A stretch of 64,000 nt of DNA from Gekko japonicus (taxonomy: Eukaryota). Below are positions 42,001-45,000 of the stretch, in pieces. The stretch is from contig NW_015172593.1 of assembly GCF_001447785.1 (NCBI RefSeq), positions 298,811 to 362,810 of the forward strand, written 5' to 3'. A program made the position numbers. Each line of letters opens with the position of its first letter. Positions within the stretch are counted from its first letter, which is position 1.

Positions 42001-45000
42001 AAACTGGAAACTAAGTATAGGGGGTATTACTTTAACACAGTGATACTTAACCCATGGTTCGGGAGCCTCTTGTGGCTCTTTGACATGAAACCTGTGGCTC
42101 TTCCCCAATGTGGCACCCTTCCCATGTTTAGGGTTGCCAACCTCCAGGTGAGACCTGGAGATTTTTGCTGTTACAGCCAAAGTTCCCTCTAAGCTGTGGA
42201 GTCTTGTGAGCAAAAGTTCTACTTGGTGAGCTACTGGCATCAAAGTTGTGAGCAAGTGATTTGGCTGCCGCATCAATTCGTTTGCTCTGGAGCCATCCTT
42301 CCTGAGCGAAGACAAACAATGTGTGAGCCAGAGGCTAACAAACTGTGAGCTAGCTCACACTAACTCAGCTTAGAGGGAACACTAACTCAGCTTAGAGGGA
42401 ACACTGACTCCAACCCTTGCAAGAGTATATTTGATTCCCACCACAAGCTTTGTTAGAACGAGTCCAAATGCATTCATTCAGAAAAGTCTATAGCTTGTTA
42501 CTACAATTCCTTTCCCTCAATTCTTTTTATCATTGGAAGTCCTTCTCTTAGTGCCGTCACCTATAGAAGTAAGGTGAATAGTAATCACGGACAGAGCTTT
42601 CTAAGTAGCAGTTGCCCCAGTTGTTGGAACATCTTCCCCAATGCAGGCTGCCTGGTAACTATTTTACTGGCTTTTAATTTAAACACAAAGGGAAACATTC
42701 CTCTTCACCCATCCTTTCAGCTAGCTGACACCTTTCTGGGATTTTCATACCACTCTCTATGGCTAGCCTTCTGTTTACAAATAACTTTTATATTGCTGGT
42801 TTTACTGACTGTTTTCACTGCTGCAAGTTTTAGTGTCTGGATCTTAAAAGTTATTTTAAATTAACCATATTACTTATTGTTTTATCATCACTGTTAGCCA
42901 CTTCCAGCAAGATTTTTAGAAATGCAGGATAGAAATATTCTAAGTAAAATAATACTGACCCTAAAGGATAAGATGCGCAATACTGACTTCTGGCTCTGGA
43001 GCCATCCTTCCTGAGCGAAGACAAACAATGTGTGAGCCAGAGGCTAACAAACTGTGAGCTAGCTCACACTAACTCAACTTAGAGGGAACACTGGTTACAA
43101 CTGATCTCCAGGCAATAGAGATCACTTCCTCTGGAGAAAATGGGGGCTTTGGAGGGTGGACTCTATGGCATTGCACCCTGTTGAGGTCCTGCCCCTCCAC
43201 AAACCCTGCCCTTCCCCAGGCTACGCCCCCCAAATCTCCAGGTATTTCTCAATCCAGAGCTGGAAACCGAACGCCGTGTTCCAGGAAAGGTCATTGCCCG
43301 GTAGGCAGATAGTTCCTGCTTTGAAATAGCTGCAGCTGGAGGGAGTGGAGGACAGCTAAGCCGTGAGCCTCCCTGAGGTGTAGCCCTCATTCTAGAGGTG
43401 GAAGAAGGCCTGCCCTCTCCAATAACCACCCCACCCCTCAGCCTCTGCGCTCTCATCCCAGCACCCGGCAACTGCCAGGAGGAGACCAAGCTGACTGCAG
43501 AGAAAAAGAGAGTTCGACTACCACCATGGCAGCCATCCAAGAAAAAGAGGCACCTGGCCACAGTAGGCTGGCTTCCTCCACAGCCAGCTGGCCCTCCTCC
43601 AGGGGCCTTGGCAATCTCATGCTCACCCGACCTGCTGTGCCTCAGGCTGAGGAGAAAGAGAGCGGGAAGGCAGAGAGGGAAGCCCTTCCCCTCACGCCTG
43701 GTACACAAGGGCTGGTGAAGGGTGAGGACTCAGGGGCAACCTGAGTTGTTATTTATGTGTTTATTTTTATGTAAGCCGCCCACAGGGAGGGCAGGGTATA
43801 AATTGAACAAATAAATAAATAAACCCTTAATGTGCGGCGGTATTCTAGTATAGTTTTTTTAAACGTTATAGTTACACACACACACACACACATATATATA
43901 ACACCTATAAAGGTAAAGGTAAAGGTTCCCCTGCTCGAAAGCCAGTCGAATCCGACTCTTGGGTTGCGGTGCTCATCTCCGTTTCCAAGCCGAAGATCCA
44001 GCGCTGTCCGAAGACGTTTCCGTGGTCATGTGGTCGGCATGACTAAACACCAAGGCGCACGGAACGCTGTTACCTTCCCACCGAAGTGGTACCTGTTTAT
44101 CTACTTGCAATTTCTTGCTTTCAAACTGCTAGGTTGGCAGGAGCTGGAACTAGAGATGGGAGCTCACTCTATCATGTGGCACCCGGGTCTCGAACTGCTG
44201 AACTACACAGCCTGCAGTTCAGCGTCTTAACCACTTGAGCCACTACAGCTCCTATATAACTATATTCATAGTTATATTACTGTGTGTGTGTTTGGTGGGC
44301 GGCACACATTCCCCATGGGGCTCTTTTGGTTGCAGGTAGTTGCAAAAATAGCTGTCCGTTAGGGATGCCAGCCTCCAGATGGGACCTGGGGATCTCCTGG
44401 AATTGTGGTTCAACTCCAGACTACAGTGATCAGTTGCCCTGGAGAAAATGGATGCTTTGGAGGGTGGACTCTCTGGCATTGTACTCCACTGAGGTCCCTT
44501 GTCCTCCCCAGGCTCCACCCCCAAAATCTCTGGGAGTTTCCCAACCTGAAGCTGGCAATGCTACCTCCCACCACCAGTGTTCCCTCTAAGCTGAGTTAGT
44601 GTGAGCTAGCTCACAGGTTTTTAGCCTCCGGCTCACACATGTTTGCTTTAGCTCAGGAAGGACGGCTCCAGAGCAAACTAATTCATGCAGCGGCCAAATC
44701 GCTTGCTCACAACTTTAATGCCAGTAGCTCACAAAGTAGAATTTTTGCTCCCAAGACTCCACAGCTTAGAGTGAACAGTGCCCACCACCGCCTCACCAGT
44801 GGCCAGGAGGGGGGACCTGGCAGTACCACCGCTCTAGCATTTCTAGCTTTATATGCTTCCCCTGCCCTGAACTTCAAATCCGGCTTTCAATCAGCAGTAG
44901 CTAAGTCCGTAAATGAGGATGATGGTGCTGTCTCCCCCCCCCCCCCCCCCCCCCGCCCAAGTTTTTTGCCCTAGAAAGCCTTGTGGTGCACCATCGACTT

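What the first reader, a model, noticed from the sequence alone, without database searches (positions are those of the whole stretch)
42178..43093. Pack-type hAT MITE that captured about 590 bp of ARPC4 intron 5; a fossil TSD gives the direction
Seen: 42426-42995 duplicates 7854-8420 (about 13 substitutions plus small indels). Structure: TSD gttacagc, full MITE, repeated 3' TIR, actccaac-ccttgcaagag, copied segment, second copy of the MITE 3' half, TSD gttacaac. The actccaac at 42407-42414 equals the left TSD (7637-7644) of the ARPC4-intron MITE, whose own right TSD has since been deleted. The CAMK1 copy therefore preserves the ancestral donor flank, so copying ran from ARPC4 to CAMK1. Junctions show microhomology (ACACT, GCT). 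Inference: template switching between sister MITEs 35 kb apart built a 916-bp TIR-bounded element carrying host DNA, analogous to plant Pack-MULE/Pack-TYPE elements.
Basis: partly seen in the sequence, partly recalled or inferred. Interest (0 to 1): 0.75.

Follow-up and report, generated by a model that had tools for sequence, protein, structure and literature searches.

The report
MITE that copied a neighbouring intron piece
A small non-coding jumping-gene relic upstream of CAMK1 carries a 570-base copy of ARPC4 intron DNA from 35 kb away, a clear but ordinary example of a kind of transposon-mediated duplication already catalogued in animal genomes.

Summary
A 916-bp composite at 42178-43093 sits between 8-bp target-site duplications (GTTACAGC/GTTACAAC). 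It consists of:
- a full 206-bp hAT-type MITE;
- a 22-bp repeat of that MITE's 3' end;
- ACTCCAAC plus 11 bp;
- 570 bp that is 97.9% identical to 7854-8420 (12 substitutions, 2 indels);
- a second copy of the MITE's 3' 100 bp (99/100 identical to the first).

ACTCCAAC equals the left target-site duplication of the MITE in the last ARPC4 intron. That MITE is the only one of 14 in the window with no right duplication. Copying therefore ran from ARPC4 to the CAMK1 side.

The outer MITE parts are the resident element, not copies of the donor MITE (92.7% against 97.9%, Fisher p=0.0013). Other copies of the surrounding older repeat show the uninterrupted target site.

The best reading is a templated insertion. 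A break or stalled fork in an old resident MITE was repaired by copying from the homologous ARPC4 MITE and running on into its flank.

This matches the single-copy "Pack-TIR" class described in animals (Tan et al. 2021), mostly hAT-associated, with nearby parents and microhomology. Mobility, genome-wide copy number and read support could not be tested. The composite lies 6.6 kb upstream of the CAMK1 start codon and has not been shown to be intronic.

The parts
42170..42177 (.). Left 8-bp target-site duplication GTTACAGC of the resident MITE/composite. This is the ancestral state.
   Evidence: Paralogous copies of the host repeat read ..TTAC(A/G)GCT.. once and uninterrupted.
42178..42383 (+). 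Resident hAT-type MITE, full length up to ...GGGAACACT. It is 6.8% from the local consensus.
   Evidence: It is 92.7% identical to the donor MITE (15 mismatches in 206). The last diagnostic difference from the donor MITE is at 42339, and 42340-42383 are identical in both.
42384..42406 (+). Second copy of the MITE 3' terminus (AACTCAGCTTAGAGGGAACACTG). It is read as the 3' end of the donor (ARPC4) MITE, entered out of register at ACACT. Together with 42362-42383 it forms a 22-bp tandem repeat.
   Evidence: (period 22, 2.5 copies, 96% matches).
42407..42414 (+). Fossil right target-site duplication ACTCCAAC of the donor MITE.
   Evidence: Identical 8/8 to 7637-7644. The donor MITE now has ATTATATT on its right side, 3/8.
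42415..42425 (+). 11 bp (CCTTGCAAGAG) of donor flank, kept here and since deleted at the donor.
   Evidence: Occurs only once in the window, on either strand. Alignment gap.
42426..42995 (+). Captured copy of ARPC4 last-intron DNA. It is in the same orientation as the donor and antisense to ARPC4.
   Evidence: 566 aligned positions, 12 substitutions, 2 indels, 97.88% identity. No Pfam family for the ORFs across it and no Rfam family.
42993..43093 (+). Second copy of the resident MITE's 3' half. It shares the 3-nt GCT with the end of the captured segment.
   Evidence: 99/100 identical to 42284-42383 and 94% to the donor MITE. It shares 3 substitutions and a 1-bp insertion with the left copy, relative to the consensus.
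43094..43101 (.). Right target-site duplication GTTACAAC, with one G>A change.
7637..7644 (.). Left target-site duplication ACTCCAAC of the donor MITE.
7645..7851 (+). Donor-side sister MITE in the last ARPC4 intron. It has the same orientation as the resident MITE and is 5.3% from the consensus.
7852..7853 (.). AT scar where 19 bp (the right duplication plus 11 bp) are missing at the donor.
   Evidence: Alignment.
7854..8420 (+). Donor (parental) segment. It continues into unique intron sequence on its right side with no junction mark.
8721..8891 (-). ARPC4 penultimate coding exon (Pfam ARPC4 profile positions 110-166 of 167). It ends ...EEFLKN followed by gtaagc.
   Evidence: (E=1.6e-27).
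7309..7314 (-). Candidate last ARPC4 coding exon start: a pyrimidine tract, cag, then TTC TAG. With 8721 it bounds the last intron (7315-8720), which holds the donor MITE and donor segment.
   Evidence: pattern search. Inferred, with no transcript evidence.
49730..49815 (+). First coding exon of the CaMKI-type kinase gene (ATG ... EVLG followed by gtgagt), 6.6 kb downstream of the composite.
   Evidence: The next kinase exon, 59812-59949, matches CaMKI structures best (1a06, E=3.9e-18, residues 28-72) and Pfam Pkinase.
42100..42169 (.). Left part of the older dispersed repeat into which the MITE inserted. Its continuation is 43102-43270.

Best explanation
An old, resident 206-bp hAT-type MITE sat in a dispersed repeat upstream of CAMK1. 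Long after it inserted, it suffered a break or a stalled replication fork.

The extending DNA end first copied the resident MITE itself, from the sister chromatid or homologue, almost to its 3' end. It then switched to the homologous 3' end of a sister MITE 34.6 kb away in the last ARPC4 intron. Both MITEs have the same orientation, and their last 44 nt are identical. Entry was out of register at ACACT, which gives the 22-bp repeat.

The end ran off that MITE through its target-site duplication and about 590 bp of intron. It was then joined back to the resident MITE at position 107 through a 3-nt GCT microhomology. That leaves 100 bp of the MITE duplicated on both sides of the insert.

The product is a single-copy, TIR-bounded composite of the 'Pack-TIR' type. 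Later the donor lost 19 bp next to its MITE, so only the copy keeps the donor's right target-site duplication.

Shown: the order of parts, the origin of each part, and the direction of copying. Inferred: the break, the two template switches, and their trigger. A trigger independent of transposase is favoured but unresolved. There is no evidence that the composite has ever moved or that it does anything.
For: 1. The structure and identities are as stated.

2. The outer MITE parts are the resident element.
- Its two copies of the 3' half differ at 1 of 100 positions and share 3 substitutions plus a 1-bp insertion relative to the 14-element consensus.
- They differ from the donor MITE at 15 of 206 and 6 of 100 positions, against 12 of 566 for the captured DNA (Fisher p=0.0013 and p=0.040).

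3. The composite is an insertion. Three paralogous copies of the host repeat (35035-35160, 46075-46210, 58865-58998) run straight through the site with a single ..TTACAGC..-like word.

4. Direction.
- The donor's right target-site duplication and 11 further bp exist only in the copy.
- 13 of 14 MITEs in the window have duplications matching at 7 or 8 of 8 positions, and the exception is the donor MITE.
- The donor segment continues into unique intron sequence.

5. There was a long wait between insertion and capture. The resident MITE is 6.8% from the consensus. The post-event divergence is 1% (internal duplicate) to 2.1% (captured DNA) pairwise, and the flanking duplication already carries 1 mismatch in 8.

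6. It fits the published pattern for single-copy animal Pack-TIRs: hAT is the commonest superfamily, parents lie in cis, 67.6% have microhomology, and capture follows transposition (PMC8277862, sections read).

7. The MITE folds strongly as single-stranded DNA (-40.6 kcal/mol, z=-3.16). A perfect 16-bp palindrome, TGTGAGCTAGCTCACA, lies about 20 nt 5' of junction 1. This is a plausible stalling or break site.
Against: - Nothing in the sequence separates repair of an internal break from replication-fork switching or from repair after transposase cutting.
- The GCT microhomology is not significant alone: P(3 nt or more)=0.06 in 20,000 random junction pairs.
- The 22-bp repeat could be a separate slippage event. 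Another MITE in the window (34341-34404) has a perfect 32-bp internal tandem repeat. In that case the first switch was an in-register homologous one.
- Junction 1 lies 5 nt from the MITE terminus, which is where the excision model, not the internal-break model, expects breakpoints.
- The only animal survey filtered out parents with a TE within 100 bp as possible segmental duplications. Its base rates therefore do not strictly cover this case.
- Only one assembly and 64 kb of it were seen.
Confidence: 0.62

Rival explanations
1. Same product, but triggered by transposase. The resident MITE was excised, or cut at one end, by an active hAT transposase. The gap was then repaired by synthesis-dependent strand annealing. 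The left end copied the sister chromatid and then the ARPC4 MITE and its flank. The right end copied 100 nt of the MITE. The two ends were joined at GCT. This is classical abortive or aberrant gap repair.
For: - Junction 1 is 5 nt from the MITE's 3' terminus.
- The family left internally deleted derivatives of the kind abortive gap repair makes (16409-16556, 23602-23792, 51271-51441).
- Lizard hAT (hobo) elements are reported to take up filler DNA (PMC3014272, passages seen).
- The donor's 19-bp deletion starts exactly at its MITE end, as a one-sided cut would give.
Against: - The resident MITE was already old at the event: 6.8% from the consensus against about 1% per lineage since.
- No full-length MITE in the window is closer than 4.4% to the consensus.
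- The two nascent ends would have shared about 95 nt of perfect overlap, yet were joined at 3 nt.
- Most single-copy animal Pack-TIRs arose without transposition.
- No autonomous hAT copy was seen in the window.
Confidence: 0.22
2. The composite is a true mobile Pack-MITE. It formed elsewhere, or earlier, and transposed as a unit into the CAMK1-upstream site, creating GTTACAGC on insertion.
For: - Both outer TIRs are intact and the 8-bp duplication flanks the whole 916 bp.
- hAT elements hop locally, which would explain the 35-kb distance.
- Four multicopy animal Pack-TIRs are known.
Against: - There is only one copy in the window.
- The flanking duplication has a mismatch (1 of 8). That fits an old insertion better than one younger than the 2.1% capture; the likelihood ratio is only about 2.5, from my own rough estimate.
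- The element has internal 3' ends that would compete for transposase.
- The multicopy class is 1.4% of cases in the survey.
Confidence: 0.07
3. RNA-templated repair. The broken + strand end annealed at ACACT to ARPC4 pre-mRNA, which is minus-sense and so of the right polarity. It was extended by a reverse-transcribing polymerase before end joining.
For: - Polarity fits: ARPC4 is on the minus strand and the copy was made rightwards on the + strand.
- The copied stretch lies wholly inside one intron, so it is compatible with unspliced RNA.
Against: - There is no positive sign of it: no splice junction, no tail.
- A DNA template explains everything equally well.
- The cis position is what DNA-templated repair predicts.
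Confidence: 0.03
4. Artefact or coincidence. Either the assembly wrongly joined reads through MITE copies, or the 570 bp is itself a dispersed repeat that landed independently at both places.
For: - MITE-rich regions are hard to assemble.
- N runs exist in the window at 6942-6977 and 55718-55998.
- The genome-wide copy number could not be checked.
Against: - The two copies differ by 12 substitutions and 2 indels, so they are two loci and not one collapsed locus.
- Both junctions are clean and lie inside resident-type MITE sequence.
- Homology crosses the donor MITE/flank boundary and includes that insertion's own target-site duplication. Independent insertion of a repeat cannot give this.
- There is no third copy in 64 kb.
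Confidence: 0.04
5. Plant-type 'neighbouring insertions' route, or end bypass. DNA between two adjacent MITEs, or a MITE plus its flank, at the ARPC4 locus was mobilised as one unit.
For: This is the favoured route for plant Pack-TYPE elements (abstracts of PMC6379663 and PMC8903248). The parent is linked to a MITE, as in the end-bypass model.
Against: - The outer MITE parts are not the ARPC4 MITE (92.7% and 94% against 97.9%).
- There is no second MITE at 8421 onwards.
- The outer duplication belongs to the CAMK1-upstream host repeat.
Confidence: 0.02

Closest known systems
Animal Pack-TIRs, single-copy class made by gap filling (Tan et al. 2021, Nat Commun, PMC8277862; abstract, introduction, two results sections and one methods section read)
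   Same: - Non-TE DNA lies between two parts of one TIR element.
- The superfamily is hAT (208 of 370 cases in the survey).
- There is one copy, with the parent on the same chromosome nearby.
- Microhomology is present at a junction.
- Capture happened long after the TE inserted.
- The source is intronic, as in several of their cases.
   Different: - The parent abuts a sister copy of the same MITE, and the first switch lies inside that shared homology. The survey's pipeline removed such cases (TE within 100 bp of the parent).
- The recipient TE shows a 100-bp duplication around the insert rather than a small gap.
- The distance of 34.6 kb is beyond their commonest range of under 15 kb.
P-element gap repair with template switching / filler capture in Drosophila (as summarised in PMC8277862, introduction; the original papers were not read)
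   Same: A break at or in a TIR element is repaired by copying. The template changes to an ectopic sequence, and filler DNA is left inside the element.
   Different: That case is experimental and transposase-induced. Here the trigger is unknown and the element was old at the time.
Filler DNA in lizard hAT (hobo) elements (Novick et al. 2010, PMC3014272; only matched passages seen)
   Same: hAT elements of a reptile genome take up extraneous DNA, giving composite non-autonomous elements.
   Different: Those are amplified families whose filler is often other TEs. This is a single composite with unique intron DNA and a traceable parent. Whether the window's species or MITE family is among theirs is unknown.
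Plant Pack-MULE / Pack-TYPE elements (PMC8903248 and PMC6379663; abstracts read)
   Same: A TIR-bounded non-autonomous element carries host chromosomal DNA.
   Different: - Those elements capture coding DNA, are often multicopy and mobile, and belong to Mutator/CACTA and other plant superfamilies.
- Their proposed route is mobilisation of DNA between neighbouring insertions.
- Here the DNA is intronic, single-copy, hAT-type, and made by template switching.
FoSTeS/MMBIR-type templated insertions (replication-based template switching; named from general knowledge and from PMC8277862, discussion passages)
   Same: There are two switches. One uses longer homology and one uses 3-nt microhomology. 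The insertion is accompanied by a short duplication of the recipient, and the template is nearby in cis.
   Different: That is a general mechanism, not tied to TEs. Here both switch points lie in copies of one MITE family.

Membership tests
hAT-superfamily MITE (the 206-bp element) | 8-bp target-site duplication | tested here: met
   13 of 14 elements in the window have flanking 8-mers matching at 7 or 8 of 8 positions. The exception is the donor MITE.
hAT-superfamily MITE (the 206-bp element) | Short terminal inverted repeats starting CA(G/A)nG, small size, high copy number and no coding capacity | tested here: met
   - A 15-nt perfectly complementary core (I4) extends to about 19 nt with mismatches.
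- The consensus is 206 bp.
- A 16-nt end motif has 31 matches against 0.97 expected.
- There are 14 elements in 64 kb.
- ORFs of 30 or 34 residues and more were scanned around 9 of the 14 elements and gave no Pfam family.
- That the TIR start is typical of hAT is recalled, not tested.
hAT-superfamily MITE (the 206-bp element) | Target preference nTnnnnAn (recalled consensus) | tested here: inconclusive
   From the table, T is at position 2 in 6 of 14 and A is at position 7 in 10 of 14. This is enriched over 25%, but the sample is small and I counted by eye.
hAT-superfamily MITE (the 206-bp element) | Ends shared with an autonomous hAT transposon that encodes the transposase | not testable with these tools
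   No autonomous copy was seen in the window, and no eukaryotic genome or repeat library was available.
Pack-TIR (definition: non-TE sequence flanked by parts of one TIR TE; PMC8277862) | Internal non-TE sequence of 100-5000 bp between two parts of the same element, each covering at least 10 bp of a terminus | tested here: met
   A 570-bp insert (589 bp with the donor duplication and 11 bp) lies between a full MITE and its 3' 101 bp. Both outer termini are present.
Pack-TIR (definition: non-TE sequence flanked by parts of one TIR TE; PMC8277862) | Unambiguous parental copy at 90% identity or more, with a length ratio of 80-120% | tested here: met
   97.88% identity, 570 against 567 bp. It is unique within the window. 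Genome-wide uniqueness was not testable.
Pack-TIR (operational filter of the 2021 survey, not part of the definition) | No TE within 100 bp of the parental copy (a control for segmental duplication) | tested here: not met
   The parent starts 3 bp from a sister MITE (7851 against 7854). Segmental duplication of MITE plus flank is excluded here in another way: the outer MITE parts are resident-type and the site is an insertion into an older repeat.
Pack-MULE / Pack-TYPE (plants) | Captured coding (genic exon) DNA | tested here: not met
   The segment lies inside the last ARPC4 intron. ORFs across the copy and the donor gave 0 Pfam families.
Pack-MULE / Pack-TYPE (plants) | Mobility: several copies with different target-site duplications | not testable with these tools
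   There is one copy in 64 kb, and no genome of this organism was available to search.
Gene assignments (ARPC4, TADA3, CAMK1) | Single exons match the family profile or solved structures, in the expected order | tested here: met
   - ARPC4: PF05856 on three minus-strand exons (E from 1.6e-27 to 7e-13), plus an N-terminal exon found by motif.
- TADA3: Ada3 PF10198 on two + strand exons.
- CAMK1: one kinase exon is closest to CaMKI structures (E=3.9e-18, against 1.2e-15 for CaMK1D).

The expected gene order is recalled.

The most novel reading that the evidence does not exclude
Homology between dispersed copies of one MITE family may be a general route by which DNA next to one copy is copied into another copy ('MITE-to-MITE transduction by template switching'). 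The only animal survey removed this class by design, because it discarded parents with a TE within 100 bp. The 916-bp product here keeps both outer TIRs, so it may still be transposable and could exist at further sites in this genome.
Probability: 0.15. Interest if true: 0.5.

Novelty: new member of a known kind. Interest (0 to 1): 0.3.

Why it matters
This is an unusually legible single case. Every junction, the source of every part and the direction of copying can be read directly, because the copy preserves a target-site duplication that the parent later lost.

It shows that a sister MITE can supply the homology that guides a broken MITE to an ectopic template, so that the sister's flank is copied.

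That class is invisible to the published animal survey. A genome-wide count of TE-adjacent parents would show whether Pack-TIR numbers are underestimated.

Functionally nothing is indicated. The copy is 570 bp of intron DNA, antisense to ARPC4, placed upstream of the CAMK1 coding exons.

Tried and rejected
1. Segmental duplication of MITE plus flank. Rejected: the left MITE is 92.7% identical to the donor MITE against 97.9% for the flank (p=0.0013).

2. Reverse direction (CAMK1 side to ARPC4). Rejected:
- the segment sits inside a MITE that is itself an insertion in an older repeat;
- the copy carries the donor's duplication.

3. Plant 'neighbouring insertions' or end-bypass routes. Rejected; see the rival explanations.

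4. The captured piece as an RNA gene or coding fragment. Rfam gave 4 matches at gathering score in the whole window, none in the copy or the donor. Pfam gave nothing for them.

5. The captured piece as a window-level repeat. There is no third copy.

6. Kinase exons near the composite. Pfam scans found none among 150 and 103 ORFs of 34 residues or more, both strands, 35.4-49.9 kb.
- Downstream, I scanned 150 of the 172 + strand ORFs of 28 residues or more from 49.5 kb on. The 22 ORFs beyond about 62.3 kb were not sent. One Pkinase match was found.
- For TADA3 I scanned 150 of the 158 + strand ORFs of 42 residues or more in 13.0-35.4 kb.

7. ARPC4 5' exons by Pfam. None was found among 69 short minus-strand ORFs at 10.8-14.7 kb. 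One exon was then found by a short motif at about 19.2 kb. Exon 1 was not located.

8. Literature search for the TIR 16-mer in either orientation: 0 papers, so the MITE family has no name from me. 'Pack-TIR' occurs in 3 held papers.

9. The filler of a second rearranged MITE at 49.1 kb turned out to be a fragment of another dispersed repeat.

10. Not done: any genome-wide, cross-species or read-level check. The only open sequence collection holds bacteria and archaea, so I did not use it. The supplementary tables of PMC8277862, which list the 370 cases and the species, were not opened. 'Lizard' and 'anole' do not occur in its main text.
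Full report
**What is there**

The window holds a very abundant 206-bp MITE.
- A 16-nt end motif occurs 31 times (up to 3 mismatches), against 0.97 expected.
- BLAST and the motif scan give 14 elements plus one extra half.
- 13 of the 14 are flanked by 8-bp direct repeats matching at 7 or 8 of 8 positions.
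- Copies differ from the local majority consensus by 2.8-10.7%.
- The element has terminal inverted repeats of about 19 nt, with a 15-nt perfectly complementary core (I4; ends). It has repeated GTGAGC words and a perfect 16-bp palindrome, TGTGAGCTAGCTCACA, near its 3' end.
- It folds strongly as single-stranded DNA (-40.6 kcal/mol, z=-3.16).
- The 8-bp duplication and the end sequence point to the hAT superfamily. No autonomous partner is in the window, and I found no published name for the family (0 papers for the end motif).

**The composite**

Between GTTACAGC (42170-42177) and GTTACAAC (43094-43101) lie 916 bp:
- a full MITE (42178-42383);
- a second copy of its last 22 nt plus G (42384-42406);
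- ACTCCAAC (42407-42414);
- CCTTGCAAGAG (42415-42425);
- 570 bp (42426-42995) that align to 7854-8420 with 12 substitutions and 2 indels in 566 aligned positions, 97.88% identity;
- a second copy of the MITE's 3' 100 bp (42993-43092/3), overlapping the captured DNA by GCT.

**Where each part comes from**

The two copies of the MITE 3' half differ at 1 of 100 positions. They share three substitutions and a 1-bp insertion relative to the consensus.

Against the ARPC4-intron MITE they differ at 6 of 100 positions (right half) and 15 of 206 (left copy). That is significantly more than the 12 of 566 in the captured DNA (Fisher p=0.040 and p=0.0013). The outer parts are therefore one resident, already diverged MITE, not copies of the donor MITE.

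The last difference between the resident and donor MITEs is at 42339, and the next 44 nt are identical in both. The change of template happened somewhere in that stretch or at the ACACT word.

The flanks of the composite belong to an older dispersed repeat. Three other copies of that repeat in the window run through the site uninterrupted, with a single ..TTAC(A/G)GC.. word. The whole 916 bp is thus an insertion, and GTTACAGC is the ancestral duplication.

**Direction**

The donor MITE (7645-7851) has ACTCCAAC on its left and ATTATATT on its right. It is the only one of the 14 elements without a matching right duplication.

The missing ACTCCAAC, with 11 further bases found nowhere else in the window, sits in the copy exactly after the MITE end. 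A target-site duplication is made at the place of insertion. The copy must therefore descend from the ARPC4 locus, and the ARPC4 locus later lost 19 bp, leaving AT.

On its right the donor segment continues into unique intron sequence without any junction. I regard the direction as settled.

**Gene context**

The gene names therefore rest on single-exon matches and on a gene order that I recall.

*ARPC4, minus strand*
- Pfam ARPC4 matches ORFs at 10591-10851, 10430-10666 and 8649-8918.
- The last of these is an exon at 8721-8891, ending ...EEFLKN followed by gtaagc.
- A strong acceptor followed by TTC TAG lies at 7317-7309.
- An N-terminal exon preceded by an acceptor lies at about 19.2 kb.
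- The donor is therefore in the last intron. It is the fifth intron if the start codon is on its own exon, which I did not locate (one search found nothing).

*TADA3 and CAMK1, plus strand*
- The Ada3 domain lies on + strand exons at about 31.4-32.1 kb.
- A CpG island lies at 35.5-36.25 kb.
- The first coding exon of a CaMKI-type kinase starts at 49730.
- The kinase exon at 59812-59949 matches CaMKI structures best: 1a06 at E=3.9e-18, CaMK1D at 1.2e-15; Pfam Pkinase.
- No ORF from 35.4 to 49.9 kb matched a Pfam family.

The composite is 6.6 kb upstream of the CAMK1 start codon. Whether it is in a 5' intron or intergenic is not shown.

I do not take the window for human. It is packed with DNA-transposon MITEs only a few per cent from their consensus, whereas primates are reported to have had no active DNA transposons for about 37 million years (PMC8277862). 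Nothing was compared with human sequence.

**How it most likely arose**

The order of parts is: resident MITE, then the donor MITE end, donor duplication and donor flank, then the resident MITE again from position 107. This needs two changes of template and nothing else.

The simplest version has five steps.
1. A break, or a collapsed fork, occurs in the resident MITE.
2. The left end copies the intact resident MITE from the sister chromatid or homologue up to ...ACACT.
3. It re-anneals on the sister MITE 34.6 kb away, which has the same orientation. It anneals at the upstream ACACT word, giving the 22-bp repeat.
4. It is extended through that MITE's end into 589 bp of intron.
5. It is joined to the other break end at GCT.

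The 100-bp duplication follows directly from this.

Equally compatible are fork stalling with two switches, and repair after transposase excision. The sequence cannot separate these. Four points bear on the choice.
- Against transposase: the resident MITE was old at the event (6.8% from consensus, against 1-2.1% pairwise since), and published base rates point the same way.
- For transposase: junction 1 is 5 nt from the terminus, and the donor's deletion starts exactly at its MITE end.
- The GCT microhomology alone is not significant (P=0.06 for 3 nt or more).
- The 22-bp repeat could also be a later slippage, since another MITE in the window carries a perfect 32-bp internal tandem repeat.

**Comparison with what is known**

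*Tan et al. 2021 (PMC8277862).* I read the abstract, the introduction, two results sections and one methods section, plus matched passages.
- They describe 370 Pack-TIRs in 100 animal genomes, 208 of them with hAT elements.
- Nearly all are single-copy, and 56.9% lie within 15 kb of the parent.
- 67.6% have microhomology.
- Most were made after transposition by gap filling.

The present case fits that description.

It differs in one respect. The parent abuts a sister copy of the same MITE, and the first switch uses that homology. Their pipeline discarded parents with a TE within 100 bp to control for segmental duplication, and they say that they may miss TE-linked parents. Here segmental duplication is excluded by other evidence.

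*Novick et al. 2010 (PMC3014272; matched passages only).* They report that lizard hAT (hobo) elements incorporate filler DNA.

*Plant Pack-TYPE elements (abstracts).* These capture coding DNA, are mobile, and are thought to arise from neighbouring insertions. None of that is met or shown here.

**Verdict**

The mechanism, template switching seeded by MITE homology, is well supported as an inference. 'Pack-type element' holds as a description of structure only.

This is a new, well-preserved member of a known kind, with no sign of function.

- the genome-wide copy number of the composite and of the 570-bp segment;
- orthologous sites in relatives;
- read support.

The supplementary tables of PMC8277862, which might list similar reptile cases, were not opened.

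Noticed in passing
window 49094-49250: This is a second rearranged MITE end. 53 bp (flank, the duplication CTGTCAAC and the first 19 nt of the MITE 5' TIR) occur twice in direct order. They are separated by a 49-bp fragment of another dispersed repeat with an (ACCTTT)n tail; relatives of that repeat lie at 43909-43954 (minus strand) and 11860-11881. It could be a heavily 5'-truncated retroelement insertion with a long target duplication, or another templated insertion at a MITE end. It lies about 500 bp upstream of the CAMK1 start codon.
   Followed up: partly
window 34318-34553: This MITE has intact 8/8 duplications (GTGGGAAA) and a perfect 32-bp internal tandem duplication at 34341-34404 (TRF score 128). 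It shows that slippage-type duplications occur in this family.
   Followed up: partly
window 16409-16556, 23602-23792, 51271-51441: These three MITE copies have internal deletions (about 61, 17 and 36 bp) but intact ends and duplications. They are the kind of derivative that interrupted gap repair leaves.
   Followed up: no
window 42100-42169 with 43102-43270, and copies near 2490-2650, 29090-29320, 35035-35240, 44350-44560, 46075-46285, 58865-58998, 63447-63680: An older dispersed repeat family, about 70-83% identical between copies, hosts the composite. Its other copies served as paralogous empty sites. The family was not identified.
   Followed up: partly
window 29409-29506 (+), 37622-37693 (-), 57741-57804 (+), 60194-60265 (+): Rfam reports one 5S-rRNA-like match (45 bits) and three tRNA-like matches (29-42 bits) at gathering score. 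They are probably SINE heads or pseudogenes rather than genes. The one at 60194 lies about 250 bp downstream of the CaMKI kinase exon.
   Followed up: no
window 7852-7853: The donor's 19-bp deletion begins exactly at the 3' end of its MITE and leaves AT. A one-sided cut at the MITE end followed by end joining would give this, but so would chance.
   Followed up: no
window 42344-42359 and in most MITE copies: A perfect 16-bp palindrome, TGTGAGCTAGCTCACA, and five or six GTGAGC words are spread through the MITE. The words may be transposase-binding subterminal repeats, and the palindrome is a possible hairpin or stall site about 20 nt 5' of junction 1.
   Followed up: no
window 6942-6977 and 55718-55998: Two runs of N (36 and 281 bases) were left as they are. 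The first lies about 330 bp beyond the candidate last ARPC4 exon. Neither touches the finding.
   Followed up: no
window 41251-41345: A 36-bp tandem repeat of 2.6 copies at 78% matches lies about 830 bp upstream of the composite.
   Followed up: no
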